From the NCBI GenBank assembly GCA_000092065.1, contig CP000598.1: 64,000 nt of DNA. One strand, 5' to 3'. The translations under genes were made by a program, and so were the position numbers. Below the pieces are notes generated by a model. That model did no database searches, was not told where the DNA came from, and saw nothing but the letters and a program-made list of their open reading frames with translations. Below are positions 11,600 through 58,220 of the stretch, one piece after another. Position 1 is the first letter of the stretch. Every line of letters begins with the position of its first letter. This DNA is from Ostreococcus lucimarinus (lineage: Eukaryota).

Positions 11600-13117
11600 A
11601 TGCCGCGATTCAGTAGGAAACGCGCGTTGAGCATACTTTTTGCGTGCGTCGTCACGAGTTCGATTTATTTCTACGCTTCGCACACGGGACGTTCGAAAAT
11701 CTCGATAGCAGTCGACGACATCGCGAAACGTGCGAGTGCGCTCCATTCGCCACGCTCGCGAGATGTGGAAAGCTTACGCAGCGTCTCTCGTCGCGCGAGC
11801 CCGGTTGCGAGTTTTGACTTTGAGTTCGCCGAGTTGAAGTTTCAAAGAGTCGTCGACGCGAGCGCCGTCGGCGACGCCGCTTCAACCACGCCGGCGTCTA
11901 TATCGTGCGACTCCGCTATTAACGACTCCGCGCGAGTCTTGACGGATGATTTCAGCGAAATCCTGGCGTGGGCATCGGCGGTGCGGCGCGAGTCGAAACT
12001 AGTGCATCTGGTGAAGTCAGCGACGCCGAGGGTGTTCGTCACCGGCTTGCTACACAACAGCTGCGTGCTCATGCACCACTACGTCGTCGAGGTGTTGAAG
12101 TTTATTCTCCTGTACGGCAACGATGAAGGTTTTGAGAATGTCTTCGTATCCCTGTACTCGAGCGGCGACGGTGACTGCGCGGTGTTGACGCTCGAAGCGT
12201 TCAAAGAACTTTTAGACGCCATCGGCGTTCCAAACGTCATCAAGACTCGGCAACGCGAGCGTATTCCTGGCATGGCGCGCATCGACTTTTTGCAAAGCAT
12301 TCGAAACGCGGCGATGGAACCTTTATATTTGAGTGATACACCGTACGACGAAGTCGTGTTTCTTTCTGACGCATTCTTTTGCGCCGGAGACATTGTGCGC
12401 TTGCTACGTCACACCGAAGCGAGCATCAAGTGTGGATTAGATTTTGATGGTACCACGAACGCGATGAAGTTTCGAGACACGTGGGTCGCGCACGACATGA
12501 GTGGACGCATGTTCACCAAAGAGTTCCCGTTTGTGCACGACGTCGTCTCGTCGCACGCCTTGAACGGCGGGGCACCTTTCCAGGTTTTGTGCTGCTGGAA
12601 TGGCCTACTGACCTTGCGTGCAAAAGTATTTACTGATCTCGGCGTGCGGTTTAGACGCTCTTTAGACGATACAGAGTGTCACGCCGCGGAAACCGAGCTC
12701 ATTTGTCACGATTTTGCGGCGCTTGGACACCCGAAGATGTTGGTTGATCCGCAAGTGACGGTGACGTATACAAAGGCGGAGTACGTCGCGCTGAGTAATT
12801 CGCGCTCGAGCCCGCACTCGTATTCTTTGAGGCGCACAAACATGTTCTCGAATGAGTCGATCGCTACGGTGGAGACGTGGGCAGAGCGCCCGTCGAGCAC
12901 GGAATGTGCCCCACTCGATGGGCACGCGGGCGATCATCCAGACAGAGGACGAATTCGACACGTCGATTGGAACGCGCACTACGCCGAAATGGGTGTTCCT
13001 GTTGCATCGGAGAAGAAGATTACGAGTTTACACGCCTGTGACGGTCCTTCGGCGAGCCAGTGCGTGCTGAGTGGTGGTAAACGCGCATTTGTTTCGCGCG
13101 ACGCGATGAGTAGATGA
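11600..13117 (+). CDS. Type II membrane protein; the putative glycosyltransferase (Cap59/GT69-like) assignment is a guess.
   Basis: The ATG is at 11600. There is a signal anchor (ALSILFACVVTSSIYFYA) and a luminal globular domain with a DxD-like DAFFCAGD. It lies inside the glycosylation island. Confidence 0.35.
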   Translation: MPRFSRKRALSILFACVVTSSIYFYASHTGRSKISIAVDDIAKRASALHSPRSRDVESLRSVSRRASPVASFDFEFAELKFQRVVDASAVGDAASTTPASISCDSAINDSARVLTDDFSEILAWASAVRRESKLVHLVKSATPRVFVTGLLHNSCVLMHHYVVEVLKFILLYGNDEGFENVFVSLYSSGDGDCAVLTLEAFKELLDAIGVPNVIKTRQRERIPGMARIDFLQSIRNAAMEPLYLSDTPYDEVVFLSDAFFCAGDIVRLLRHTEASIKCGLDFDGTTNAMKFRDTWVAHDMSGRMFTKEFPFVHDVVSSHALNGGAPFQVLCCWNGLLTLRAKVFTDLGVRFRRSLDDTECHAAETELICHDFAALGHPKMLVDPQVTVTYTKAEYVALSNSRSSPHSYSLRRTNMFSNESIATVETWAERPSSTECAPLDGHAGDHPDRGRIRHVDWNAHYAEMGVPVASEKKITSLHACDGPSASQCVLSGGKRAFVSRDAMSR

Positions 13118-20772: not shown

Positions 20773-21023
20773 ACGTCGTTCACGGTGGTTCGAAAACGAA
20801 ATAGTTGCATCCAAGTTTGTTCATGTCGTAGCGCGTCACTACACACCGCGCGCGTCCGGGTGACGCTGATTGGCGCGGGAAGCGGCCGTGGCAGCCTATG
20901 AGAAACCTTGGGTATAAGTCGCGATGGTTGCCGCGGAACTGGCTAAATCCAGCCTTGTTTTTTGGGGTGGGGTAAAACGACCAATCGTGACTCAATATCC
21001 GTTTATATATTTAGTGCACACTT

Positions 21024-21198
21024 TGCGAGCTATACCTTATATGATGGTGAGCAATCGGGCCTAGTGCGTCGATAAGTGATGATAATTACAATCAGTTGTG
21101 GTTAGTTCATTAATGAGTGTTAACTCGTCAATTAGTCCCGCTAGGTTACTAGGGGAAGCTACTATATTTCATATTTTACTCTTCAGATTTCTAACACA
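21024..21198 (-). repeat. copia 3' LTR
   Basis: Identical to 26579-26753 and preceded by the PPT. Confidence 0.8.
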
Positions 21199-21213
21199 CC
21201 TCCTTAGCTTTCT

Positions 21214-24200
21214 CTAGTCTGAGGGCTTACCAATACCTTTGAAAGGTTGGATTTCCTCACTTTCGACCTTCTCGAGATATTCTTGAAATGTGTGCAGAGC
21301 GTCACTCTTCACCATACCTTCACTCAACCTCTGGTTGATGAAGTCTCGTATGTCCTTCGAAGATATATGACTTAACATCACGTTGAAGTGATTAGAACAC
21401 TCGTGAACGTCTGCTGGACCTGAAAAGTTCTTCTTGTTCGGCAATATCTTTGTCAACATATCGGCTAAGTTGTGTGATGATCCTATGTTAAATGGCTGTA
21501 TAATCCCTTCTCTGTGAGCATAATGTTGGATCCAGGAGTATCTTATTTCCATATGCTTGTTTGACTTAGACGACATAGTTTCCATTGCCTGTCGAATGGC
21601 TGTCGTATTATCGCAGAAGAGTGGTACTCTTGACAGTTTAAATCCAAGCTCTCGAAACAACAAAATTTGAAAGAATAAATCTTTCGCGGCTTCATACATT
21701 GCCATGAACTCTGCTTGCGCTGAACTCGTGGCTGGTATTCCTTGCAGTTTGCTCTTCCAATTGGTAGGGCCGCATGAAAAAGATATATACCCCGATGTGG
21801 ATTTTCTTCCGCATCTATCTTTCGAATTTAAGGATAACTTTTGGCCTGCCCAATCCGAGTCTGTAAATCCTGCAAGTCTCACTATACCATTGCATTCAGC
21901 ACCGTTGTAGGTTAATGGAATATTGGGGTTCCTCTTGAGATATCCAACCGCTCTGCATAAAGCGCTAAATTGCTTATGCGTTGGGTTACTTGCTACCCTT
22001 CCAGCTAGACTGCATACCACAGCAAGATCTGGTCGAGTAGCAGTATTAAACCAATTCAGACTTCCCAGCACTTGTTGATATGTTGTCCGCTTCATCCTGT
22101 CTACTGCATCTGTGTCATCCTCCTTGGCGAGAACAAACGTATCTGATGGTAGTAATGGCGAATTGCAAGCATTGATATCTTGCACAGGACATTTTGCCAG
22201 AAACTGCGCAATTGAATATTCTTGGTTGAGTGTGTAACAATTCTTCCCTAATCTCTTTATATGGATGCCGTTGTACACCTTTATCCTTTCAAATTGCGAA
22301 ACTTTGTAAATTCTGGAAAATTCTTTGTGGAACTGCTTGACAACCTCATCGTTCTCAGCGGTTATCAGAAGATCATCTACCAATACTGAAATGATCATGA
22401 AGGGCTTGCTATTGCTCATCTTAACAAACAAACAGCTATCCTTACATAATTGGTTCAAACCCAGAGACCTTAGAGTCTTGGTTACATGCAAATACCAACA
22501 CCGTCCCGCTTGCTTTGTGCCATACAAGGGTCTGCGTAACTTGTAGACCATTCCTTTCGGAAGCGGATGTGACCTTGGGGCCTTGACGTATATATCATCT
22601 AGGAGTTCCCCTTGCGTGTAAGCTTGGGATACATCTATCGTAAAGATGTCCCATCCTAATATCGCCGCCAAGTTTATGAGTATCCTAAATGTGGTCATGG
22701 AAGCAACGGCACTAAATGTGTCGTGGTAGTCCTTCAACCAAACTTGGGTGAATCCTTGCACTACCAATCTAGACTTAAGGGAACCATCTGGTTTTACCTT
22801 ATCTACCCATTTGGATCCACAAATATTTGCATCTCCGGCTTCAACAATACTGACCTCCATTAATGTGGTTTCGAGCAATCCATTGAGCTCTTTTGCTCTG
22901 CTCTCTGAGAAATCCACACTTGACTCATCAATAATTTTACCGTATTCTTCGCCTTTTGCGACGGCTGTGGCTAGCACACTGTGTGCTGCCCTATTTGTCG
23001 AATCAGCGTTATTTAGCGCAGGATTCAATTTTACCGTTTTATCGCCGTAACTCCCGCCCTGGAGCTGGATATGCGAATACTTACATGTGAGGTAGATAAC
23101 CTGTTTCTTGAGCTCATCCTCAGAAACTCTACCATTCTCTTTGAAGTGGTTAACGAGATGTTCAATATCGTCAGTCGGTTGATCAGTCCCAACATCAGCA
23201 TTGTTCTCTGCGTCAACACCTCCTTCAACTTCTTCAAGGATCTCTGGAGAAAACCCGCTAGGCCCCCAGCCTGGATACTTATCCTGAAGGCTACTCTGGT
23301 CCATCCTTGTCCGTTCCCTCGCAAATTCGAGAAAATCCTCGACTAGACCAGCATTGGCGTTATTGAGCGCCGGAACTACATCGCTAGCGTTATTGAGCGC
23401 TGAGCCAGCGTTATTTAGCGCTGCTTCGGCGTTATTGAGCGCCGGAAATGGTTCGCTAGCGTTATTGAGCGCTGAGCCAGCGTTATTTAGCGCTGCTTCT
23501 CCCCCGGACTGCGGATAATCCTCGTCAAGATCGTCATCTTCGCAATCACTTTCAGATTTGTATCCTTGGTCCTCCTTTTGAGAATCCAACAAATCATTCA
23601 ACCAATCGTCCAGGTCACGGCGGTCGGAAAGCTCCGGTGGGAGGATAACAAGCTCCGGTGGGAGGATACTATTGTCGGTTAGCTCTGTTCGGTCTCCTGT
23701 TAATCCAGGATGCTCCCCATTCTGTGCATTCACCGACCCAGCGTTATTGAGCGCCGGTCTATTTACATAATTTTCATGGTCGAAGATCAACTCCGACGTT
23801 TCTTGAACATAACCTGGTGCTGATCCTTGGCGTTTCAGGATGCTGTTGGACAAAACCACAACATATTTCTTCGGGTGCAAAGTTACACTAGAGTAACCTA
23901 TGAACCACACTGGAAATCTACTCACACACCAATCCGGCCTTGAAGCCGGGTGCTGATTACTCAAATTTTGAGCAATCACATTCCGCGCCATATACGCCTT
24001 ACAACCAAATGGATGTAAGACTTGGATATCCACACCGTGTCCAAAAACTTCATAATACGGAGATTGCAACTTATTGTGCACTTTGACTCCAGTTATATTT
24101 CTTACTGTGGCGGCGTACTTCATGGCATATACCCAAAACTCACTCGGCACGCCACTTGCTATCAAGAGCTTTTTGGCGATTATCTTGAGTGCTTGATTCG

Positions 24201-25212
24201 TCCTTTCTGCTACGCCATTTTGCCACGGATGTCCTACATCACTCTTGGAAAATACCATTCCATGATCATCACAGAATTTTCCAAATGTAGACTTGATATC
24301 GCCACCACCATCGGAGTGTATCCGCTTGAGTCGAATTTCTCCATCTTGATGGTATCTTCTGCGGTGGTCTTGTATTAACGCTAGATCGCGCTTAAATTCC
24401 TTAAGCGCATGTGTCAGTGACCTTTCCTCAACGGTGGACGGCCGATTGCTCTCTACGGGGTAGACCAGCTGGAATCTGGTATACTCATCTGTAACGGTCA
24501 AACATGCCTTTTGATCTACAATCTTACAAACCATAGAACCTCTTGGCGGTCCGAAAGTCACGTCCATGTGGACAATTTCAAACGGTTTTGTACATCGCTT
24601 GGTACTCCTCTTACCGTGATTCGTTTGTCTTGTATGACCTATCTTGCATGTGACGCAATTATCGGCAGCATTATTCAACTTTGCTTGTAGCTCGTCCAGA
24701 GGTTTGTCACTTGTTATCCAACTATTGTTGAATGCAGTAAGTAATGTATTACTTGACACATGGCCAAGTGTATCATGTATTAACGTCGGTATCCAGAATA
24801 TGGGCCGTTTTGACGATATATCTATCACCGGCAATCCATCGTGACGTCGACGAACATTAACATCATGATATTTTCCATCTTCATCTGGTAATTTGATACT
24901 TCCGCCGGAGTCATTTAGGCTAATCGGGTAACCTGTGCATGATAATATTCCGGCTCCTGGAAGATCGGCTCCAGGGGCACAGTTTGCCTCGAAATGGAAT
25001 TCAAAATGTTTTCCTTCCGTGTCAACTAGATCAACCTTTGCAACTCCTGATTTGGTCACTACCGTAGTGCCGTTGATAGAGGTCAAGATTTCGTTTCCTC
25101 GAGACTTCACGTTGTGCAACTTTAGTGCATCATTTATTACACTCACACACGCTCCACTGTCGACCAGTAAAGTATTTTTGTTGCCTAGATGATATGTCTC
25201 GAGGATTATCGG
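21214..25212 (-). CDS. copia Pol (protease-integrase-RT-RNaseH). It is read in frame directly after the gag UGA and has no ATG of its own.
   Basis: Reading on from the gag stop gives PIILETYHLGNKNTLLVDSGACVS..., so the PR active site lies immediately downstream of the stop. The tracked ORF start at 25146 is a GTG. Confidence 0.8.
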   Translation of the reverse strand, partial: PIILETYHLGNKNTLLVDSGACVSVINDALKLHNVKSRGNEILTSINGTTVVTKSGVAKVDLVDTEGKHFEFHFEANCAPGADLPGAGILSCTGYPISLNDSGGSIKLPDEDGKYHDVNVRRRHDGLPVIDISSKRPIFWIPTLIHDTLGHVSSNTLLTAFNNSWITSDKPLDELQAKLNNAADNCVTCKIGHTRQTNHGKRSTKRCTKPFEIVHMDVTFGPPRGSMVCKIVDQKACLTVTDEYTRFQLVYPVESNRPSTVEERSLTHALKEFKRDLALIQDHRRRYHQDGEIRLKRIHSDGGGDIKSTFGKFCDDHGMVFSKSDVGHPWQNGVAERTNQALKIIAKKLLIASGVPSEFWVYAMKYAATVRNITGVKVHNKLQSPYYEVFGHGVDIQVLHPFGCKAYMARNVIAQNLSNQHPASRPDWCVSRFPVWFIGYSSVTLHPKKYVVVLSNSILKRQGSAPGYVQETSELIFDHENYVNRPALNNAGSVNAQNGEHPGLTGDRTELTDNSILPPELVILPPELSDRRDLDDWLNDLLDSQKEDQGYKSESDCEDDDLDEDYPQSGGEAALNNAGSALNNASEPFPALNNAEAALNNAGSALNNASDVVPALNNANAGLVEDFLEFARERTRMDQSSLQDKYPGWGPSGFSPEILEEVEGGVDAENNADVGTDQPTDDIEHLVNHFKENGRVSEDELKKQVIYLTCKYSHIQLQGGSYGDKTVKLNPALNNADSTNRAAHSVLATAVAKGEEYGKIIDESSVDFSESRAKELNGLLETTLMEVSIVEAGDANICGSKWVDKVKPDGSLKSRLVVQGFTQVWLKDYHDTFSAVASMTTFRILINLAAILGWDIFTIDVSQAYTQGELLDDIYVKAPRSHPLPKGMVYKLRRPLYGTKQAGRCWYLHVTKTLRSLGLNQLCKDSCLFVKMSNSKPFMIISVLVDDLLITAENDEVVKQFHKEFSRIYKVSQFERIKVYNGIHIKRLGKNCYTLNQEYSIAQFLAKCPVQDINACNSPLLPSDTFVLAKEDDTDAVDRMKRTTYQQVLGSLNWFNTATRPDLAVVCSLAGRVASNPTHKQFSALCRAVGYLKRNPNIPLTYNGAECNGIVRLAGFTDSDWAGQKLSLNSKDRCGRKSTSGYISFSCGPTNWKSKLQGIPATSSAQAEFMAMYEAAKDLFFQILLFRELGFKLSRVPLFCDNTTAIRQAMETMSSKSNKHMEIRYSWIQHYAHREGIIQPFNIGSSHNLADMLTKILPNKKNFSGPADVHECSNHFNVMLSHISSKDIRDFINQRLSEGMVKSDALHTFQEYLEKVESEEIQPFKGIGKPSD

Positions 25213-25215
25213 TCA

Positions 25216-26391
25216 CTCGTCTTTCTCTTTTGGATCAGACTCGTTCCCTCTTGGTTTCTTATTGGCAAACTTGTCTACCCGCCGCTGCAGATCAGGACGT
25301 AACGGCGATTTACACTCCCAATACCTGTGACCTTTCCTGTTACAGTTGAAGCAAGCTCCTTTCGGCTGAAACTTCTTCCGCTTCAGATTATTCACAGCAA
25401 GCTGTTTAGGTGATGTCTCCTGATCGAGTTTATCAGCTATAACAAGCTTATTCGTGCATTTGGTAAAGTCCAGTTTGTCGCGCTGCTGGGAAAGTAACTC
25501 CTCACACACCTTTTTGACATTCGTTCGAGACAGCGGAGACGCCAACAACATAACGAGTATTGTTTCGGTGAAACCACTGAATTCGATCGTTTCCGAAGTG
25601 GTGAGTTCGTTCCCATTTATCGTGAACGCAGATTGAACCTGCCGACGCAACCTCAGCCCGTTGTTGAGTCTAACTTGACTATCATTTGGGAGGGAAGTAA
25701 ACAATTTTCTTTTGTTACCCAAGAATTCCGCCATGTTTCCGGATCCAGTGTACTTTATGTCATTTAACCGATTCTCTACGAGAGTTTGGATCGTTGAGTA
25801 AGGGTCTAATTCCAGAAGTAATCTGTCTAACAAAGTAATCCCCGACCAAGTCGCTCTTGACGCTCTCATGTCGCTTACGAGCTTCTTGAGTTGTTCAGGA
25901 AATACATTTGATAAATCAAAAACGCCGTCAGCCAGTTCTTGATCCGCAACATCGAGCGGTACCAATGTCCTATCCGGATGTAACTTCTCATAGTCTTTCA
26001 CTGTAACACGATTATTCTCAGCGTTAGCAGGTGGTAACCCCGGGAGTCCGTTGGAATCCCTTTCATCCTGCATTACGTTGTAAACGTATTTACACAAATC
26101 GATGTTATCACGGAATGTAATATCCAGCGAAGCTACGATTGCGGTGATCCTGCAAAGATCCATATTGGCATTTTTATACTTTGCATCAATGTAGTGGCGC
26201 AACAGCTTATCCGCAGCGATCGACACACTGACGGCCTCCGTTTTCCTTCTTCCGTTGATTTTAGAAGATGTAAACCTGTAGTTCAAAGATTGAACCATTA
26301 AATCTATAAATTCGACTACGTTGTCGCCTTGAACACCGCTCTTGAAACGCGTGAACGACGCCAGGTCCGTTGGTAGGAACGCTTCCGACAT
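25216..26391 (-). CDS. copia Gag (capsid/nucleocapsid with one CCHC zinc knuckle)
   Basis: The ATG at 26391 was verified. The protein ends ...SDPKEKDE, followed by TGA at 25215-25213. Confidence 0.8.
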
Positions 26392-26578
26392 CTTGCTTTG
26401 GTTAAGCGTTTTAAGGCGTTACTAAATTTAGAATCTTCTAAAAATAGAACGATTCGCTCTAAAAATAGAACGACTCTTTACAAACCGATCGAGGCGCAAA
26501 AGGCACTCTTCCGATTGACACTAATCGTAGGTCCACGCTAGCGTGCTGCACGTCGTCGCAGATGGCAGAATCGTACGA

Positions 26579-26753
26579 TGCGAGCTATACCTTATATGAT
26601 GGTGAGCAATCGGGCCTAGTGCGTCGATAAGTGATGATAATTACAATCAGTTGTGGTTAGTTCATTAATGAGTGTTAACTCGTCAATTAGTCCCGCTAGG
26701 TTACTAGGGGAAGCTACTATATTTCATATTTTACTCTTCAGATTTCTAACACA
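26579..26753 (-). repeat. copia 5' LTR
   Basis: Identical to 21024-21198. Confidence 0.8.
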
Positions 26754-28654
26754 CTTCGACTATGTATCACGAATGCGGATCCTCGCACTTGAGAAACCTC
26801 GGATTTATACGTCGCGATGGGTGTCGTGCGTGAGAAACCTTGGGTTTATAAGTCGCAATAGATGTCGTGCGTGCTTGGCTTGTCTGATGCTGATTCATAC
26901 GCGCTAAGTCTATATGTAGGTCTAGTTCGTGTACAAGTAGTGTAGACATGCACGTCAGCAACAAAAAACTCCGCCGGTGCATTTGGCTTGAAAAAGTTCG
27001 AGCTCTATCACTAGATGCGACCTACCAATGATCACACCGTTCGTGTTCCTCTTAACCAACTTTGCTTGTGTGCTTCTCTGTCGGATATCTTGTCATTCTT
27101 GACCTTCTCGAAATTTGTCTCTATCCAATCCATGATCCACTTGCCCCACTCATGAATATGGCGACTCCAGACGTCGACTTCATTCCAAGATCTGATTTTC
27201 CAGGAAATAATTCTTCATTTACAAAGTTCGAATCACTAAACGCTGCCGGACATATACTCGAGTCCTTCCTGAAGTACAGTTCTACGACTTAAAATGTTCG
27301 TCAAATCAAGATTCGATACAAAGTGCGCAAATTCCGAATCGTCCAGAAGGCTGCGGCATAGATTTGTTTTTGCAACGTAAAAACGGCTTGAAAACTATCG
27401 GCCTTGAGAAATCTCAAGACAATGTCAATGTTGGCACACGTCAGCTCATCGGCGCTCACACACTCACTAAGCGCGATCATGCCGAGTCTGCAAACAGTGT
27501 TGTAAGTCTGGCTATCATATTTGTATTTGCTTACTGCGCTCTTTTCATTTTAAAGAGGATGCCGAAGCGGATTTAAAGTTGGCCACGTTGAGAGGCTCAG
27601 ATAAGAGCATGTATTATTAGCTTGTATTCTTGATAAGCCTTTCCGGATAGAATGCGTGACGAGTTACGACTCAACTGCAACTGTGAACATCAATCGAAAC
27701 TGAAAGTTCAGAAGTTGTGACCGCTCGCTGGAAAATTGACCCACTACCGACGGTGACAGTCGCCGTGGCGAATTGTTTTTGTTTGGGCACTGCGCAGACG
27801 AAATCGAGAATTTTGGCGATATGAGGTGAGGACTATGCGAGGCGGGGGGAGAGTCTACGCGGTCTTGGTCCCAGTGGCATTCCTTCCTAGCCGACTGCGT
27901 CTCTGTAGGAACGTTTCGCCGTCGATGAGCTACACCAGAAGTATCGCGACGGCATATCGCGACGATGGGCGCCGCCGCCTAGGCGCGGGAAGTCTGATCC
28001 CGGCTACGAAAGATATAAGACCCACCCCGCGTTACGAAAGTCTTGATACAGTGTATGGTTTTTCATAGTGCAGTGCAACGAACGTGTCGAATACGATGAC
28101 GCGTGAAATGAAGGGGAAACGACGACCAAACGGGGTTCCACAGCGCGCAGGGTTCGTGCGTATTTCGCGCGCGGCGTCTTGTCGGCGTGCTCATCCATCG
28201 CGACGAAAGTGGGCGAGGCCGATGCACGTTGGCTTTTACACGTTCTGCGCGTCGTTCGCCGATCCGGCGTGGGGACGCGGTTCTCGCGCGCGCGTCGCGC
28301 GTCGCGCGCGCCGCGAAGGCGACGACGACGACGATCGCGCTTCCGAGACCCTCGTCGCGCGTCTCCGCGCGCGTCGCGTCGCGTGCGGTTCGCGCGACGC
28401 GTCGCGCGCGCGCGACTGGGCTCGTTCGGTGCGTTGCGCCGCCGCGGTGCGGTGGCGGCGCGCGCGACCGCGCGGGCGCGCGTTTCAGTGATGGCGTGCG
28501 TGATTGCATAACGCCCGTTTCAGTGATGGCGTGTGTGTCTGTTGCGATGATGGTATATATGGCTCGTTTCGAAGTAAAATATGTATATTAGATCGTATTA
28601 TGATACATTTAAGTCTATCTGTGTGATCCATGGATACATTTTCGTTCGATTGAT

Positions 28655-43746: not shown

Positions 43747-46272
43747 TTAGGAAACCTTATCCGTGCCTTTTACGCTGAGCCCGGTCATGGACGGCTTCGT
43801 CGGCATGGTGAACGCGGTGTAGTCCGCCGCCGTGGGCACCGTGATGCTCGTGTCGTACGACATCCCGGAGCACGCCGACGCATCGGCGGGAGCAAGCATT
43901 TCGACACCACTTTCGAGTTTCAAGACGTACCGGTCGCCAGTCGATGGTTGTTTGAACGTGGTGCCATCGGGGATCAGGACATCCGGACGGCGATGGTAAC
44001 CATTGTTGTCGTCGCACTCCTCGTTGCCATACTGGTCGACCTCGGGCGCCGCGCGCGAACCAGTCATCGGATTGAAGCAAATGAACGGCGCGTCGCCCAA
44101 CCAACCGCCTTCGTAACGCACGTTGAGATTCACCCCGGAGTAGTCGGTACCGGATGGAGAGCGCAGCAACACGGCGTCCGTGGGTATCTTGCCTTGAAGC
44201 TGGAGAGGCGCATCCATGAACTTCTTTGACGCGGAGTCCGAAGGATCTTCGAGCCACGCCATGCCCTCCCAATTGCTTGAGCTCCACTCGTAGTGCACAT
44301 CCAATTTGTTGGGTTCCTCGCAAACGTCGGTAGTGGCGGTGCAACTCAAAGTGTCGAGGTTCGCAGGTGTAGCTTCGAAGAGAACCATATGAACTTCTCC
44401 CGAGTCAAAGAATGAGTTGGTTGGGTCCATTACGACTTCAGCGCCGAGGGTGCCGGAAACGTCTTCCTTCAACGAGCCGGTATCTTTGTCGAAGACGTAC
44501 TTTTTATAAGTGCTTCGAGCGTCGTTGTATCCGTTCGGCGAGCCGTAGAACTGGCTGTCGTGACTGCTCGCACTCGATAGCTTCGTCTGGTCGATACACC
44601 GCTCGCCGCACGTGAGTGCGAGGTGGCTGCTGAGCGACCCAGGGGGGACGGTTTGCGCGTCAGACACTTTGAAGTGCGTCAGGTTAAGCAAACTCGCAGA
44701 GCCTCGGCCGAAGATGCTTCCCCAGCAGCGTATGATTTGGTTGTCAATGTCAGCCATCGTGAGCGCACGCGGAGTCGTGATTGAGTTCGTGTTCAGCGAT
44801 CCACCGTTCCAAGTTCGCTTCGACGACAACACGAGTGCGTTCGCGTCGGAGTCATACCTGAACTTGACCTCAACTTCTGCAGCGTTAGTGTCATCCCAGA
44901 ACCAGCCTGTGATCGTCGCCCCTTGGTAGTCGCTTGCGCTTCGCACCGTCGCCGTGAACTTGTACAACACCCCGCGTGAGACTTTGAGCCTCTTGTTCAC
45001 GTTCAGTATCGGATCATCCCAATCGACAATTTCCTCTACTACGTTCCCGTCGGTGAACGCGGTTTGAGCGATAGTCTTCTCGGCGGTACTGAGCGCGGTG
45101 TCGGAAATGTAGTCGTAATCGGAAATGTAGAGATTGCCCGGATAGTGCAGATCAGCATTATACGTCTTGCCGTCGCTGCCTGTAGCCTGAAGATGCACGT
45201 AGCTTTGAAGGTTCACCTTCGCCCCGTTGCTGTCGTACGCGCCGTAGCGCTCACCGAAGAACGATCTGTTCTCGAGTTCATCGCAGAATGACTGCCCGTA
45301 CGCCTTCGTCTTGACGAGCGTAGCGGTAGTCACCAATTGACCCGCTTGTGTCGAACCATTATCAAAGTCGATGGTCTGGAAAGAGGCCTTCGTGATGTCG
45401 TTTTCTGCGCGCGATTTAGCACCCGCGGTGAATGAATTGCTGCCTCGTGTCACCTCTTCCCACCACGTGACCCCGGTCGCCGTGCAATCCGAATCCGCGT
45501 CGGTGGTTTCGCACTCGCGACGAACCACACCTTTGATGCGTTGGGACGCGGTCGAGCCAGTCGGCGATTGGTACGTAAAGGTAAAGTTTTTCACCAAGAT
45601 TTTGTCAGACTTGATGGCGACGTCATCGCGCTTGACGATCATTTCCGTGTCGATGTTCGGCATTTCTGGGGTATCGCTGAGGGCTACCCAGACGTTCGTC
45701 TTGAAATCACGGGTATCGCTCGCGTCGTCGATGTCTGGGCCCGTGGCGTTGACGACCCAACGGTACGTAACCTTACCCTTGATTCGGTCGCCGTCGCTGT
45801 TGTCACAGTGGAAAGGATCGATCTCAGCGATGTATGGGCCAGTGTTCAGGTTCGCCGTCCAGTTCACCGAGGCGACGTAGCAAAGAACCATGTTTGGTAT
45901 CTGGAAAATTTCGGTACTTACAGCGTCGACGAACGTCTCCGCCGGCGGCGCCGTGGCGTAGTCGGACGTCGAAGAGAACGAAGACACTTCGAGAGGCGTC
46001 ACCTCGACGAGCGAACGACCATCGATTCGAGACGAACCAGAAGACGTCGTCGAAACACCCTCTGACGGGATCATGGTGACTTTACGCGGCGTCAACGCCG
46101 CCTTGAGCGCGTTCGTCTTCGCCGCGCCCGACAGCCCGCTGACGGTGGTCGGGGTCGGGGCCGGGGCCGGGGTCGCGTCGTCATCCCTGAGCCCGATGCC
46201 GAGGCCGGTGCCAAGGGCGACCACCACGGCGGCGACACCAACGATCGCGATCGCAACGCCACGTCTCACCAT
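43747..46272 (-). CDS. Protein of about 841 aa anchored by a signal anchor or N-terminal TM segment. It has a (TPAP)n linker and a large Ser/Thr/Asp/Trp-rich ectodomain. Copy A.
   Basis: The ATG was verified. The N-terminus reads VAIAIVGVAAVVVALGTGLGIGL. I recognise no catalytic motif. Confidence 0.55.
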   Translation of the reverse strand: MVRRGVAIAIVGVAAVVVALGTGLGIGLRDDDATPAPAPTPTTVSGLSGAAKTNALKAALTPRKVTMIPSEGVSTTSSGSSRIDGRSLVEVTPLEVSSFSSTSDYATAPPAETFVDAVSTEIFQIPNMVLCYVASVNWTANLNTGPYIAEIDPFHCDNSDGDRIKGKVTYRWVVNATGPDIDDASDTRDFKTNVWVALSDTPEMPNIDTEMIVKRDDVAIKSDKILVKNFTFTYQSPTGSTASQRIKGVVRRECETTDADSDCTATGVTWWEEVTRGSNSFTAGAKSRAENDITKASFQTIDFDNGSTQAGQLVTTATLVKTKAYGQSFCDELENRSFFGERYGAYDSNGAKVNLQSYVHLQATGSDGKTYNADLHYPGNLYISDYDYISDTALSTAEKTIAQTAFTDGNVVEEIVDWDDPILNVNKRLKVSRGVLYKFTATVRSASDYQGATITGWFWDDTNAAEVEVKFRYDSDANALVLSSKRTWNGGSLNTNSITTPRALTMADIDNQIIRCWGSIFGRGSASLLNLTHFKVSDAQTVPPGSLSSHLALTCGERCIDQTKLSSASSHDSQFYGSPNGYNDARSTYKKYVFDKDTGSLKEDVSGTLGAEVVMDPTNSFFDSGEVHMVLFEATPANLDTLSCTATTDVCEEPNKLDVHYEWSSSNWEGMAWLEDPSDSASKKFMDAPLQLQGKIPTDAVLLRSPSGTDYSGVNLNVRYEGGWLGDAPFICFNPMTGSRAAPEVDQYGNEECDDNNGYHRRPDVLIPDGTTFKQPSTGDRYVLKLESGVEMLAPADASACSGMSYDTSITVPTAADYTAFTMPTKPSMTGLSVKGTDKVS

Positions 46273-55688: not shown

Positions 55689-58220
55689 TTAGGAAACCTT
55701 ATCCGTGCCTTTTACGCTGAGCCCGGTCATGGACGGCTTCGTCGGCATGGTGAACGCGGTGTAGTCCGCCGCCGTGGGCACCGTGATGCTCGTGTCGTAC
55801 GACATCCCGGAGCACGCCGACGCATCGGCGGGAGCAAGCATTTCGACACCACTTTCGAGTTTCAAGACGTACCGGTCGCCAGTCGATGGTTGTTTGAACG
55901 TGGTGCCATCGGGGATCAGGACATCCGGACGGCGATGGTAACCATTGTTGTCGTCGCACTCCTCGTTGCCATACTGGTCGACCTCGGGCGCCGCGCGCGA
56001 ACCAGTCATCGGATTGAAGCAAATGAACGGCGCGTCGCCCAACCAACCGCCTTCGTAACGCACGTTGAGATTCACCCCGGAGTAGTCGGTACCGGATGGA
56101 GAGCGCAGCAACACGGCGTCCGTGGGTATCTTGCCTTGAAGCTGGAGAGGCGCATCCATGAACTTCTTTGACGCGGAGTCCGAAGGATCTTCGAGCCACG
56201 CCATGCCCTCCCAATTGCTTGAGCTCCACTCGTAGTGCACATCCAATTTGTTGGGTTCCTCGCAAACGTCGGTAGTGGCGGTGCAACTCAAAGTGTCGAG
56301 GTTCGCAGGTGTAGCTTCGAAGAGAACCATATGAACTTCTCCCGAGTCAAAGAATGAGTTGGTTGGGTCCATTACGACTTCAGCGCCGAGGGTGCCGGAA
56401 ACGTCTTCCTTCAACGAGCCGGTATCTTTGTCGAAGACGTACTTTTTATAAGTGCTTCGAGCGTCGTTGTATCCGTTCGGCGAGCCGTAGAACTGGCTGT
56501 CGTGACTGCTCGCACTCGATAGCTTCGTCTGGTCGATACACCGCTCGCCGCACGTGAGTGCGAGGTGGCTGCTGAGCGACCCAGGGGGGACGGTTTGCGC
56601 GTCAGACACTTTGAAGTGCGTCAGGTTAAGCAAACTCGCAGAGCCTCGGCCGAAGATGCTTCCCCAGCAGCGTATGATTTGGTTGTCAATGTCAGCCATC
56701 GTGAGCGCACGCGGAGTCGTGATTGAGTTCGTGTTCAGCGATCCACCGTTCCAAGTTCGCTTCGACGACAACACGAGTGCGTTCGCGTCGGAGTCATACC
56801 TGAACTTGACCTCAACTTCTGCAGCGTTAGTGTCATCCCAGAACCAGCCTGTGATCGTCGCCCCTTGGTAGTCGCTTGCGCTTCGCACCGTCGCCGTGAA
56901 CTTGTACAACACCCCGCGTGAGACTTTGAGCCTCTTGTTCACGTTCAGTATCGGATCATCCCAATCGACAATTTCCTCTACTACGTTCCCGTCGGTGAAC
57001 GCGGTTTGAGCGATAGTCTTCTCGGCGGTACTGAGCGCGGTGTCGGAAATGTAGTCGTAATCGGAAATGTAGAGATTGCCCGGATAGTGCAGATCAGCAT
57101 TATACGTCTTGCCGTCGCTGCCTGTAGCCTGAAGATGCACGTAGCTTTGAAGGTTCACCTTCGCCCCGTTGCTGTCGTACGCGCCGTAGCGCTCACCGAA
57201 GAACGATCTGTTCTCGAGTTCATCGCAGAATGACTGCCCGTACGCCTTCGTCTTGACGAGCGTAGCGGTAGTCACCAATTGACCCGCTTGTGTCGAACCA
57301 TTATCAAAGTCGATGGTCTGGAAAGAGGCCTTCGTGATGTCGTTTTCTGCGCGCGATTTAGCACCCGCGGTGAATGAATTGCTGCCTCGTGTCACCTCTT
57401 CCCACCACGTGACCCCGGTCGCCGTGCAATCCGAATCCGCGTCGGTGGTTTCGCACTCGCGACGAACCACACCTTTGATGCGTTGGGACGCGGTCGAGCC
57501 AGTCGGCGATTGGTACGTAAAGGTAAAGTTTTTCACCAAGATTTTGTCAGACTTGATGGCGACGTCATCGCGCTTGACGATCATTTCCGTGTCGATGTTC
57601 GGCATTTCTGGGGTATCGCTGAGGGCTACCCAGACGTTCGTCTTGAAATCACGGGTATCGCTCGCGTCGTCGATGTCTGGGCCCGTGGCGTTGACGACCC
57701 AACGGTACGTAACCTTACCCTTGATTCGGTCGCCGTCGCTGTTGTCACAGTGGAAAGGATCGATCTCAGCGATGTATGGGCCAGTGTTCAGGTTCGCCGT
57801 CCAGTTCACCGAGGCGACGTAGCAAAGAACCATGTTTGGTATCTGGAAAATTTCGGTACTTACAGCGTCGACGAACGTCTCCGCCGGCGGCGCCGTGGCG
57901 TAGTCGGACGTCGAAGAGAACGAAGACACTTCGAGAGGCGTCACCTCGACGAGCGAACGACCATCGATTCGAGACGAACCAGAAGACGTCGTCGAAACAC
58001 CCTCTGACGGGATCATGGTGACTTTACGCGGCGTCAACGCCGCCTTGAGCGCGTTCGTCTTCGCCGCGCCCGACAGCCCGCTGACGGTGGTCGGGGTCGG
58101 GGCCGGGGCCGGGGCCGGGGTCGCGTCGTCATCCCTGAGCCCGATGCCGAGGCCGGTGCCAAGGGCGACCACCACGGCGGCGACACCAACGATCGCGATC
58201 GCAACGCCACGTCTCACCAT
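55689..58220 (-). CDS. The same ~843-aa membrane-anchored protein, copy B.
   Basis: Identical apart from an extra APAP encoded by one more GGGGCC unit. Confidence 0.55.
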   Translation of the reverse strand: MVRRGVAIAIVGVAAVVVALGTGLGIGLRDDDATPAPAPAPTPTTVSGLSGAAKTNALKAALTPRKVTMIPSEGVSTTSSGSSRIDGRSLVEVTPLEVSSFSSTSDYATAPPAETFVDAVSTEIFQIPNMVLCYVASVNWTANLNTGPYIAEIDPFHCDNSDGDRIKGKVTYRWVVNATGPDIDDASDTRDFKTNVWVALSDTPEMPNIDTEMIVKRDDVAIKSDKILVKNFTFTYQSPTGSTASQRIKGVVRRECETTDADSDCTATGVTWWEEVTRGSNSFTAGAKSRAENDITKASFQTIDFDNGSTQAGQLVTTATLVKTKAYGQSFCDELENRSFFGERYGAYDSNGAKVNLQSYVHLQATGSDGKTYNADLHYPGNLYISDYDYISDTALSTAEKTIAQTAFTDGNVVEEIVDWDDPILNVNKRLKVSRGVLYKFTATVRSASDYQGATITGWFWDDTNAAEVEVKFRYDSDANALVLSSKRTWNGGSLNTNSITTPRALTMADIDNQIIRCWGSIFGRGSASLLNLTHFKVSDAQTVPPGSLSSHLALTCGERCIDQTKLSSASSHDSQFYGSPNGYNDARSTYKKYVFDKDTGSLKEDVSGTLGAEVVMDPTNSFFDSGEVHMVLFEATPANLDTLSCTATTDVCEEPNKLDVHYEWSSSNWEGMAWLEDPSDSASKKFMDAPLQLQGKIPTDAVLLRSPSGTDYSGVNLNVRYEGGWLGDAPFICFNPMTGSRAAPEVDQYGNEECDDNNGYHRRPDVLIPDGTTFKQPSTGDRYVLKLESGVEMLAPADASACSGMSYDTSITVPTAADYTAFTMPTKPSMTGLSVKGTDKVS

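What the first reader, a model, noticed from the sequence alone, without database searches (positions are those of the whole stretch)
25144..25216. copia gag and pol separated by a single in-frame UGA, implying stop-codon readthrough rather than one ORF or a frameshift
Gag ends ...KEKDE-TGA. The same frame continues as PIILETYHLGNKNTLLVDSGACVS, so the protease catalytic DSG motif lies 19 codons after the stop. Typical Ty1/copia elements use one ORF or a +1 frameshift. The element is otherwise intact, and its identical LTRs point to recent transposition. That would make a disabling nonsense mutation a coincidence.
Basis: seen in the sequence. Interest (0 to 1): 0.6.

Follow-up and report, generated by a model that had tools for sequence, protein, structure and literature searches.

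The report
Conserved gag-UGA-pol readthrough site, algal copia
An intact jumping gene (Ty1/copia retrotransposon) in the tiny marine alga Ostreococcus lucimarinus keeps one in-frame UGA stop codon between its coat gene and its enzyme gene; every relative found keeps the same stop and a folded RNA just after it, so the stop is most likely a leaky valve that sets the coat-to-enzyme ratio, a known strategy seen here in a new host group.

Summary
On the minus strand, gag (25216-26391, 392 aa) ends at TGA (25213-25215). The same frame runs on for 1332 codons of PR-IN-RT-RH to TAG (21214-21216). The element has identical 173-bp LTRs and a 5-bp target duplication. The window is Ostreococcus lucimarinus CCE9901, on its 149-kb contig.

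The stop is not a chance mutation. All 28 loci that carry this junction have TGA at the same in-frame position. They fall into four subfamilies; the most distant compared is 47% identical over the first 420 pol residues. Every full-length gag homologue found is a 389-437 aa stand-alone ORF. Pol just after the stop evolves under dN/dS of about 0.1-0.2.

In all 19 copies that still have the PR-coding region, a stem with 5' arm CCUCG... starts 7-8 nt after the UGA and closes a loop of about 90-110 nt. It is the most structured of 187 windows tested across the element (z about -4.5). It has two compensatory base pairs. This is the layout of the alphavirus and tobravirus readthrough stimulator.

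No SECIS was found, no splice site is conserved, and the host uses TGA as a stop.

Verdict: programmed UGA readthrough is the best explanation but is not shown experimentally. It is a new member of a known kind (Tca2, MuLV, fission-yeast Tj1). Interest is moderate.

The parts
26579..26751 (-). 5' LTR, 173 bp, TGTTAG...CTCGCA
   Evidence: Identical to the 3' LTR, 0 mismatches in 173.
26752..26756 (-). Target-site duplication AAGTG, 5' side
   Evidence: The same 5 nt flank the 3' LTR.
26571..26578 (-). 8-nt palindrome TCGTACGA directly after the 5' LTR, where a primer-binding site is expected
   Evidence: Conserved in subfamilies A, B and D. Subfamily C has TCGATCGA, also a palindrome. Its function was not tested.
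25216..26391 (-). gag ORF, 392 aa, with a CCHC zinc knuckle near the C-terminus (= OSTLU_25775 / XP_001422326.1)
25213..25215 (-). In-frame UGA between gag and pol, preceded by GAG (Glu) and followed by C: the candidate readthrough codon
   Evidence: Present at the same position in all 28 loci of four subfamilies.
25206..25212 (-). 7-nt unpaired spacer CCGAUAA between the UGA and the stem
   Evidence: Unpaired in the minimum-free-energy and centroid folds. Spacer length is 7-8 nt in all subfamilies.
25196..25205 (-). 5' arm of the closing stem, UCCUCGAGAC
   Evidence: Pairs with 25096-25105. The CCUCG core is invariant in all four subfamilies.
25096..25105 (-). 3' arm of the closing stem, GUCUCGAGGA
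   Evidence: The nucleotide motif UCUCGAGG is kept between A and B although it sits in a different codon phase: TCT CGA GGA = SRG in A, TTC TCG AGG = FSR in B.
25096..25215 (-). Whole recoding cassette: UGA, spacer, and a branched stem-loop of about 110 nt that lies over the PR-coding sequence
   Evidence: MFE -40 kcal/mol, z = -4.57 against 200 dinucleotide shuffles. It is the most structured of 187 windows across the element.
25153..25161 (-). Protease active-site codons DSG, codons 18-20 after the stop
21217..25212 (-). pol reading frame (PR-IN-RT-RH), 1332 codons, no internal stop, same frame as gag
   Evidence: dN/dS is 0.10-0.28 over the first 330 codons.
21197..21213 (-). Polypurine tract AGAAAGCTAAGGAGGTG directly 5' of the 3' LTR
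   Evidence: read from the sequence.
21024..21196 (-). 3' LTR, 173 bp
21019..21023 (-). Target-site duplication AAGTG, 3' side

Best explanation
The feature is the gag-pol recoding site of an intact, recently inserted Ty1/copia LTR retrotransposon of Ostreococcus lucimarinus. Most ribosomes translating the full-length RNA stop at the UGA and release Gag. A small fraction decode the UGA with a near-cognate tRNA (Trp, Cys or Arg) and continue in frame to make a Gag-Pol fusion, which the element's own protease then cleaves. A long branched stem-loop favours this outcome. Its closing helix begins 7-8 nt after the UGA, so it would sit at the ribosome's mRNA entrance when the UGA is in the A site. 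The leaky Glu-UGA-C context may also help. Shown here: the in-frame UGA, its strict conservation, selection on pol, and the conserved predicted structure. Inferred: that readthrough occurs, its efficiency, the amino acid inserted, and that the structure stimulates it.
For: (1) Anatomy: gag-TGA-pol in one frame, intact 1332-codon pol, identical LTRs and a target duplication.
(2) All 28 loci have TGA at the homologous in-frame position. They form four subfamilies: A is O. lucimarinus; B is about 60-65% identical in gag; C is 47% identical over the first 420 pol residues and its gag cluster contains O. tauri CEG01342.1; D is L032-L035.
(3) A HMMER profile search of 1.84e9 representative proteins found full-length gag homologues only as 389-437 aa ORFs, none fused to pol.
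(4) Pol after the stop has dN/dS of 0.10-0.19 at dS 0.14-2.0, so pol has been translated throughout the period the UGA was kept.
(5) The frame relation between gag and pol is kept in all four subfamilies despite in-frame indels on both sides of the stop.
(6) Every copy with an intact PR region folds with the same closing stem 7-8 nt after the UGA. z-scores are -4.57 (A), -2.95 (B), -3.94 (C) and -3.34 (D). The window that starts at the UGA is the most structured of 187 across the element.
(7) Two pairs change on both sides: A-U to G-C with a G-U intermediate, and C-G to U-A. 81.8% of cells are paired against at most 65% when partners are slid, and 1 of 500 shuffles reaches the observed pairing.
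(8) The 3' arm nucleotides are kept between A and B although the codon phase and the amino acids differ.
(9) A perfect 9-nt complement in this geometry occurs at 5 of 5538 positions in the element.
(10) The host uses TGA as a true stop: the gene at 11600-13117 ends in TGA and matches XP_001422291.1 exactly.
(11) The layout matches experimentally validated UGA readthrough stimulators, which have a 7-9 nt spacer, a stem of about 12 bp with a 1-nt bulge, and a loop of about 100 nt (PMC3159437).
Against: No protein, ribosome-profiling or RNA data were available, so readthrough is inferred and not observed. In Tca2, the one copia element studied experimentally, 300 nt around the gag UGA gave no readthrough above background in S. 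cerevisiae (PMC2194720). A conserved in-frame UGA therefore does not guarantee a simple local readthrough signal. The bases directly after the stop are not conserved between subfamilies (CCG, CCU, UGG, CAA) and do not match the classical UGA-CGG or UGA-CUA. Covariation support is thin: there are four lineages, the core pairs are invariant, and the alignment used was made from excised arms. In subfamily B the helix needs a shifting 1-nt bulge. The synonymous-site scan did not single out the arms. One locus, L030, has a 1-nt deletion 22 nt upstream of the UGA that puts gag out of frame. It is either a defective copy or an assembly error.
Confidence: 0.75

Rival explanations
1. Pol is expressed without decoding the UGA. 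This could be by internal or non-AUG initiation, by termination-reinitiation, or from a separate promoter or transcript near the junction. The conserved stem-loop would then serve that process, or packaging or dimerisation, and not readthrough.
For: A weak promoter was found in the Tca2 junction and local readthrough was not detected there (PMC2194720). Subfamily D has an AUG two codons after the stop, UGA CAA AUG.
Against: In A and B the first in-frame AUG lies after the protease DSG; in the window it is about codon 263. AUG initiation would therefore lose the protease. gag and pol stay in the same frame in all four subfamilies, which this model does not require. In Tca2 itself Pol followed the LTR promoter and not the junction promoter.
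Confidence: 0.12
2. A small intron spanning the UGA is spliced out of a fraction of transcripts to make a fused gag-pol mRNA, as an early O. tauri gene model assumed.
For: A 1527-aa UniParc entry (P0184) in the subfamily-C gag cluster joins gag to pol by skipping 'RKTE*WSVLGV', about 30 nt. In L027 a GTAAG lies at that point (sequence).
Against: In L027 the skipped segment ends in GG and not AG. Thirty nt is below normal spliceosomal intron size (general knowledge). The later O. tauri annotation ends gag at the stop: CEG01342.1 / XP_022840900.1, 401 aa. In A the only GT at the site is inside GAG-TGA, and it is absent from the B copies that have GAA-TGA. No donor-acceptor pair is conserved across subfamilies. 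This was judged by inspection and not by exhaustive search.
Confidence: 0.05
3. The UGA is decoded as selenocysteine. Ostreococcus has the Sec machinery (general knowledge), which would make Gag-Pol synthesis depend on selenium.
For: The codon is UGA in every copy. Stem-loops close after Sec-UGA codons are known in some selenoprotein mRNAs (general knowledge; such elements are mentioned in PMC3159437).
Against: No SECIS or any other Rfam family matched at E <= 10 on either strand across 20900-26900. The 3' UTR is at most about 190 nt, and part of it is LTR. The residue position is in a poorly conserved linker with no redox context.
Confidence: 0.03
4. The UGA is a disabling nonsense mutation in a dead copy.
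For: None beyond the presence of a stop codon.
Against: The same TGA is present in all 28 loci of four subfamilies, the most distant 47% identical over the first 420 pol residues. Pol dN/dS is 0.1-0.2. The LTRs are identical and pol is intact.
Confidence: 0.01

Closest known systems
Tca2 (pCal) of Candida albicans, Ty1/copia
   Same: It is a Ty1/copia element with gag and pol in the same frame separated by a single UGA, with a predicted RNA structure after a spacer of about 8 nt. Pol is made from the LTR-driven gag-pol RNA (PMC2194720).
   Different: Tca2 has a purine-rich spacer and a predicted compact bulged pseudoknot. Here the spacer is not purine-rich and the structure is a branched stem-loop of about 110-135 nt. 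The hosts are unrelated (yeast versus prasinophyte alga). No gag sequence similarity turned up in any search. The Tca2 junction failed to drive readthrough in S. cerevisiae; this family is untested.
Extended 3' stem-loop readthrough stimulators of alphaviruses, tobra-, peclu-, furo- and pomoviruses and coltivirus ('type II', Firth et al. 2011, PMC3159437)
   Same: These use a UGA, usually followed by C, a 7-9 nt spacer, a closing stem of about 11-12+ bp that often has a 1-nt bulge, a loop of about 100 nt with inner structure, and a total span of about 96-140 nt. The downstream gene is the polymerase. One divergent member even has UGA-UGG, as subfamily C does.
   Different: Those are RNA viruses. 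The canonical UGA-CGG or UGA-CUA triplet is not present here (CCG, CCU, UGG, CAA). There is no sequence homology. Stimulation is shown experimentally for VEEV and SINV and is not shown here.
Moloney murine leukaemia virus gag-pol readthrough
   Same: An in-frame stop lies between gag and pol. A structure 8 nt downstream stimulates about 5% readthrough and so sets the Gag:Gag-Pol ratio (as summarised in PMC2194720 and PMC3159437).
   Different: MuLV uses UAG-G and a compact pseudoknot. It is a retrovirus and not a Ty1/copia element.
Fission-yeast Ty3/gypsy elements Tj1, Tcry1 and Tosmo1-3
   Same: They have an in-frame TGA between gag and pol with a conserved Glu-codon-TGA-C context, GAA TGA CT. 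The stop in Tj1 is reported to be essential for transposition (bioRxiv 10.1101/2022.12.06.519325). Here the context is GAR TGA C in A, B and D.
   Different: They belong to a different superfamily (Ty3/gypsy). That paper describes no extended downstream structure.
retrostreo2 of Ostreococcus tauri (chromosome 8; Yau et al. 2016, PMC5082852)
   Same: It is very probably the same element family, subfamily C. It is an LTR retrotransposon given as 5,537 bp in the text and 5,910 bp in a figure legend of that paper, drawn as a POL gene plus a separate zinc-finger gene. The O. tauri CCHC protein CEG01342.1 falls in the 90% cluster of the L027 gag.
   Different: The paper treats the two ORFs as separate genes and does not mention the in-frame UGA, readthrough or the stem-loop. 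I could not read the O. tauri DNA itself, only a metagenomic copy from the same 90% gag cluster.

Membership tests
Ty1/copia (Pseudoviridae) LTR retrotransposon | pol domain order PR - IN - RT - RNase H | tested here: met
   DSG protease motif at pol residues 18-20, rve at 208-329, RVT_2 at 796-1021.
Ty1/copia (Pseudoviridae) LTR retrotransposon | LTRs ending TG...CA, a 5-bp target-site duplication, and a polypurine tract before the 3' LTR | tested here: met
   173-bp identical LTRs TGTTAG...CTCGCA, duplication AAGTG, tract AGAAAGCTAAGGAGGTG.
Ty1/copia (Pseudoviridae) LTR retrotransposon | Primer-binding site complementary to initiator tRNA-Met (3' end, or internal segment in hemiviruses) | tested here: inconclusive
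   The sequence after the 5' LTR is TCGTACGATTCTGCC, with no TGG. I could not match it to a tRNA. No tRNA gene is in the window.
Programmed stop-codon readthrough at a gag-pol junction | A single in-frame stop between gag and pol, conserved among diverged family members | tested here: met
   TGA in 28 of 28 loci from four subfamilies. No fused gag homologue was found.
Programmed stop-codon readthrough at a gag-pol junction | The downstream frame is under protein-coding selection | tested here: met
   dN/dS 0.10-0.28 over the first 330 pol codons.
Programmed stop-codon readthrough at a gag-pol junction | A Gag-Pol fusion protein is made by decoding the stop, at a measurable efficiency | not testable with these tools
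   This needs a reporter assay, ribosome profiling or proteomics.
Type II readthrough signal with extended 3' stem-loop (Firth et al. 2011) | A stem-loop whose 5' arm starts about 7-9 nt after the UGA and spans about 100-140 nt, conserved across relatives | tested here: met
   Predicted in all 19 copies with an intact PR region in four subfamilies. z-scores are -2.95 to -4.57. It ranks first of 187 windows.
Type II readthrough signal with extended 3' stem-loop (Firth et al. 2011) | Compensatory substitutions support the stem | tested here: inconclusive
   Two pairs change on both sides (AU/GU/GC and CG/UA), and 81.8% of cells are paired against at most 65% when slid. There are only four lineages, the core pairs are invariant, and the arms were excised by hand for the alignment.
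Type II readthrough signal with extended 3' stem-loop (Firth et al. 2011) | UGA followed by CGG or CUA | tested here: not met
   The triplets are CCG, CCU, UGG and CAA. The +4 base is C in A, B and D only.
Type II readthrough signal with extended 3' stem-loop (Firth et al. 2011) | Enhanced synonymous-site conservation in two peaks over the arms | tested here: inconclusive
   The 9-sequence scan did not rank the arms among the lowest windows. However, the 3' arm nucleotides persist across a change of codon phase between A and B.
Tca2/MuLV-type signal (spacer plus compact pseudoknot) | A purine-rich 8-nt spacer followed by an H-type pseudoknot | tested here: not met
   Only the spacer half of this feature was tested. 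The spacers are CCGAUAAU, CCGCUUG, UGGUCUG and CAAAUGA, which are not purine-rich. Pseudoknots were not tested, because ViennaRNA does not predict them.
Selenocysteine recoding | A SECIS element in the 3' UTR | tested here: not met
   No SECIS or other Rfam match at E <= 10 in 20900-26900 on either strand.

The most novel reading that the evidence does not exclude
A whole clade of Ostreococcus Ty1/copia elements may set its Gag:Gag-Pol ratio with an alphavirus- or tobravirus-like signal, that is, a UGA plus a long 3' stem-loop. In the literature I could search, that class of signal is described only in RNA viruses and a few cellular genes, not in an LTR retrotransposon or an alga. O. tauri is transformable (PMC8002553 title and abstract). 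The family could therefore be a tractable system for the unresolved question of how copia-type elements bypass the gag UGA, which is still open for Tca2. A more remote reading, selenium-dependent Sec insertion, is mostly excluded by the absence of a SECIS.
Probability: 0.5. Interest if true: 0.55.

Novelty: new member of a known kind. Interest (0 to 1): 0.4.

Why it matters
The finding explains why genome annotations of Ostreococcus split these elements into a 'CCHC zinc-finger hypothetical protein' and a separate 'POL' gene, or invent a 30-nt intron to join them. It marks these copies as probably functional and not broken. That matters because Ty1/copia elements are concentrated on the hypervariable outlier chromosomes linked to virus resistance in these algae (PMC5082852; bioRxiv 10.1101/2025.04.21.649811). 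For the recoding field, it adds a conserved four-lineage example of gag-UGA-pol in a copia element. It comes with a clear, mutable candidate stimulator, in a host group where stop-codon readthrough has not been studied.

Tried and rejected
Nonsense mutation or dead copy: rejected by conservation and by dN/dS.

Frameshift: not needed, because gag and pol share a frame in all four subfamilies.

UGA reassigned in the host: rejected, because an exactly matching annotated host gene ends in TGA.

Selenocysteine: an Rfam scan at E <= 10 found no SECIS.

Splicing: the fused 1527-aa O. tauri model skips about 30 nt that end in GG in the related contig, and the later annotation drops it. The GT inside GAG-TGA is absent from the GAA-TGA copies.

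Searches that found nothing: scans of genome contigs and viral contigs found no relatives. The second and third protein searches found no lineage between about 47% and about 28% identity.

Whole-region MAFFT plus RNAalifold recovered only the 6-bp core of the stem. The shuffle control on that alignment was uninformative, so I re-counted on excised arms that include subfamilies C and D.

The first sliding z-score script timed out. It was repeated with mononucleotide shuffles.

The synonymous-site scan did not highlight the arms.

Gao et al. 2003 (PMC1370496) is not held in the library. Statements about the survey of gag-pol recoding rest on citations in other papers and on memory.

L029 is a rearranged gag fragment and was not informative.
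Full report
OBSERVATION

The element lies on the minus strand. gag is 25216-26391 and encodes 392 aa ending ...DPKEKDE. It is followed by TGA at 25213-25215. The same frame then reads PIILETYHLGNKNTLLVDSGACVS... and stays open for 1332 codons to TAG at 21214-21216. Pfam places rve (208-329) before RVT_2 (796-1021) in the downstream part, which is the Ty1/copia order.

The LTRs are 173 bp with no mismatch (26579-26751 and 21024-21196). They are TG...CA and are flanked by the 5-bp duplication AAGTG, with a polypurine tract before the 3' LTR.

SOURCE

Exact look-ups show that the window is Ostreococcus lucimarinus CCE9901, on its 149,386-bp contig. gag is OSTLU_25775 / XP_001422326.1, annotated only as a hypothetical CCHC protein. 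From general knowledge of that genome, I take this contig to be the small outlier chromosome; I did not check this.

The element is a low-GC island (about 45%) in sequence of about 51-60% GC. A host gene in the window (11600-13117) matches XP_001422291.1 exactly and ends in TGA. UGA is therefore an ordinary stop in this organism.

IS THE STOP CONSERVED?

- A search with gag returned only proteins of 389-397 aa when full length, down to 59-60% identity, and none joined to pol.
- I fetched contigs for these hits, made one metagenome scan with a junction alignment, and followed up more distant gag and pol hits. This gave 27 further loci that carry the junction.
- The loci fall into four subfamilies.
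  - A is the window plus L004-L007 and L031. It is at least 86% identical to the query over the junction region.
  - B has gag about 60-65% identical.
  - C is L027, 47% identical over the first 420 pol residues. Its gag cluster contains O. tauri CEG01342.1 / XP_022840900.1. It very probably corresponds to 'retrostreo2' of Yau et al. 2016 (PMC5082852).
  - D is L032-L035, with a gag of 411 aa. L033 carries a complete 1336-codon pol between terminal repeats 5666 nt apart.
- All 28 loci have TGA at the homologous position, in frame with pol and preceded by a Glu codon (GAG or GAA).
- The following triplet differs by subfamily: CCG or CCU in A and B, UGG in C, CAA in D.
- A HMMER profile of gag run against 1.84 billion representative proteins found full-length homologues only as 389-437 aa ORFs. 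The two long hits match only the zinc knuckle.
- The nearest ordinary copia found, L025 at 25% identity, has a fused gag-pol.
- One locus, L030, has a 1-nt deletion in an A-run 22 nt before the TGA. It is a defective copy or an assembly error.
- Nine loci are internal-deletion derivatives that keep gag, the TGA and the 5' arm but have lost the protease region.

IS POL STILL USED?

Over the first 330 codons after the stop, dN/dS is 0.10-0.19 for pairs with dS from 0.14 to about 2. It is 0.28 for one very close pair. Pol has therefore been under purifying selection for the whole period during which the UGA was kept. gag and pol also remain in the same frame in all four subfamilies, despite in-frame indels on both sides; for example, 17 codons lie between the stop and the catalytic Asp in A and D, against 22-23 in C and B. 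A disabling mutation is excluded, and no frameshift is needed.

RNA STRUCTURE

In the window, the 131 nt starting at the UGA fold to -40 kcal/mol. The closing helix is UCCUCGAGAC (25196-25205) paired with GUCUCGAGGA (25096-25105), after a 7-nt unpaired spacer. The z-score is -4.57, and 0 of 200 dinucleotide shuffles fold as well. Among 187 windows of 131 nt across the whole element, the one starting at the UGA is the most structured, at z = -4.47 against -3.61 for the next.

The same closing helix appears in the minimum-energy fold of every copy with an intact protease region, in all four subfamilies:
- A: CCUCGAGAC / GUCUCGAGG.
- B: (U)CCUCGRRACGAC / GUCGUUCUCGAGG(G), 12-13 bp with a 1-nt bulge whose place shifts with the purine variant.
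- C: UCCUCGGG / CCCGAGGA.
- D: CUCGGGAUU / AAUCCCGAG.

The z-scores for B, C and D are -2.95, -3.94 and -3.34.

I counted pairs on an alignment of the excised arms: 12 distinct sequences, with the arms cut out by hand because the loops do not align.
- 81.8% of cells form standard pairs, against at most 65% when the 3' partners are slid.
- One pair shows A-U (6), G-U (3) and G-C (3). Another shows C-G (4) and U-A (2).
- One of 500 shuffles reaches the observed pairing.
- On the full-length alignment the core 6 pairs are 100% paired but almost invariant, so the shuffle control says nothing there.

A further point favours an RNA-level constraint. Between A and B the 3' arm UCUCGAGG is preserved as nucleotides, although it sits 4 nt apart relative to the protein alignment and encodes different residues: AAG TCT CGA GGA AAC GAA (KSRGNE) against AAG TCG TTC TCG AGG GAA (KSFSRE).

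A perfect 9-nt complement in this geometry is found at only 5 of 5538 positions in the element.

The weak points are these. There are only four lineages. The 5' arm core is invariant, so it could also be a primary-sequence signal. The synonymous-site scan did not pick out the arms.

ALTERNATIVES

- Selenocysteine: no SECIS or any other Rfam family matched at E <= 10 across the element.
- Splicing: an old O. tauri model (UniParc UPI0000E4B7AF, 1527 aa) joins gag to pol by skipping 'RKTE*WSVLGV'. In the related contig that 30-nt segment ends in GG, and it is too short for a normal intron. The later annotation ends gag at the stop. In A the only GT at the site is inside GAG-TGA, and it is lost in the GAA-TGA copies of B.
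- Independent initiation: in A and B the first in-frame AUG comes after the protease active site. Only D has an AUG next to the stop. This alternative cannot be excluded without experiments, and the Tca2 work is a warning. There, 300 nt around the gag UGA gave 0.3% 'readthrough' in S. cerevisiae, no more than a control stop, although Pol clearly came from the LTR-driven RNA (PMC2194720).

COMPARISON WITH WHAT IS KNOWN

An in-frame stop between gag and pol is an established strategy.
- MuLV uses UAG, an 8-nt spacer and a pseudoknot.
- Tca2 (pCal) of Candida albicans is a Ty1/copia element with UGA.
- The fission-yeast Ty3/gypsy elements Tj1, Tcry1 and Tosmo1-3 have a conserved GAA-TGA-CT. The stop in Tj1 is reported to be essential for transposition (bioRxiv 10.1101/2022.12.06.519325).

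The geometry found here is closest to the 'extended 3' stem-loop' of Firth et al. 2011. It shares the UGA, the 7-8 nt spacer, a closing stem of about 9-13 bp sometimes with a 1-nt bulge, a structured loop of about 90-110 nt, and a polymerase downstream. In VEEV and SINV that structure raises UGA readthrough 3- to 14-fold (PMC3159437). That paper does not mention retrotransposons.

The family fails the classical type II triplet (CGG or CUA) and the purine-rich spacer of Tca2 and MuLV. I therefore describe it as working like those signals without filing it as a strict member of either.

In the searchable literature, Ostreococcus copia elements are noted only as TEs enriched on the outlier chromosomes, and retrostreo2 is described as a POL gene plus a zinc-finger gene. 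I found no mention of the in-frame UGA or of readthrough.

VERDICT

The most likely mechanism is low-frequency decoding of the gag UGA, probably helped by the conserved stem-loop, to give a Gag-Pol fusion. My confidence is about 0.75 for readthrough and about 0.5-0.6 that the stem-loop is the stimulator.

This is a new member of a known kind of system and not a new mechanism. The stimulatory architecture may be new for a retrotransposon and for an alga. Interest is 0.4.

Noticed in passing
window 26571-26578 (-); L033 140-147; L027 326-333: Directly after the 5' LTR, where a tRNA primer-binding site is expected, subfamilies A, B and D have CA|TCGTACGAT and subfamily C has CA|TCGATCGAT. Both are 8-nt palindromes, kept palindromic by a TA-to-AT swap. 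There is no TGG and I recognised no tRNA match. This may point to an unusual priming or dimerisation signal.
   Followed up: partly
window about 24313-24333 (-), pol codons about 294-300 after the UGA: Nine A and B sequences show no synonymous differences over about 7 codons, against a background of 33%. This could be another RNA element or a recombination tract.
   Followed up: no
window 23344-23487: A 72-nt tandem duplication (88% identity) in the IN-RT linker of pol encodes repeated ALNNA motifs. Subfamily D has an unrelated 84-nt duplication at the equivalent place. This linker appears to be hypervariable and repeat-prone.
   Followed up: no
L030 about 1327 (22 nt 5' of the TGA at 1349): This copy is identical to L003 in the 130 nt compared around the junction except for a 1-nt deletion in an A-run, which puts gag out of frame with the TGA and pol. 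It is a defective copy or a metagenome assembly error.
   Followed up: partly
L001, L014-L017 and L019-L022: These are two recurrent internal-deletion derivatives of subfamily B. They keep gag, the UGA and the 5' arm but lack the protease region and the 3' arm. They were found on several contigs from different samples, which suggests non-autonomous copies that spread. Yau et al. describe a similar miniaturised derivative in O. tauri.
   Followed up: no
P0184 (UniParc UPI0000E4B7AF), subfamily C: An early O. tauri gene model fuses gag and pol by skipping 'RKTE*WSVLGV' and several other pol segments. It looks like a gene-prediction workaround for the in-frame stop.
   Followed up: partly
window 43747-46272 (-) and 55689-58220 (-): Two host ORFs of 841 and 843 aa in the window fall in the same 90%-identity protein cluster. 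They are a recent gene duplication on this small chromosome.
   Followed up: no
L002, L001, L029 (flanks): Copies of this family in metagenomic contigs sit next to glycosyltransferase genes (Glyco_transf_11, Gly_transf_sug, Gb3_synth, Nucleotid_trans, DUF268). This is the gene content reported for Mamiellales small outlier chromosomes.
   Followed up: no
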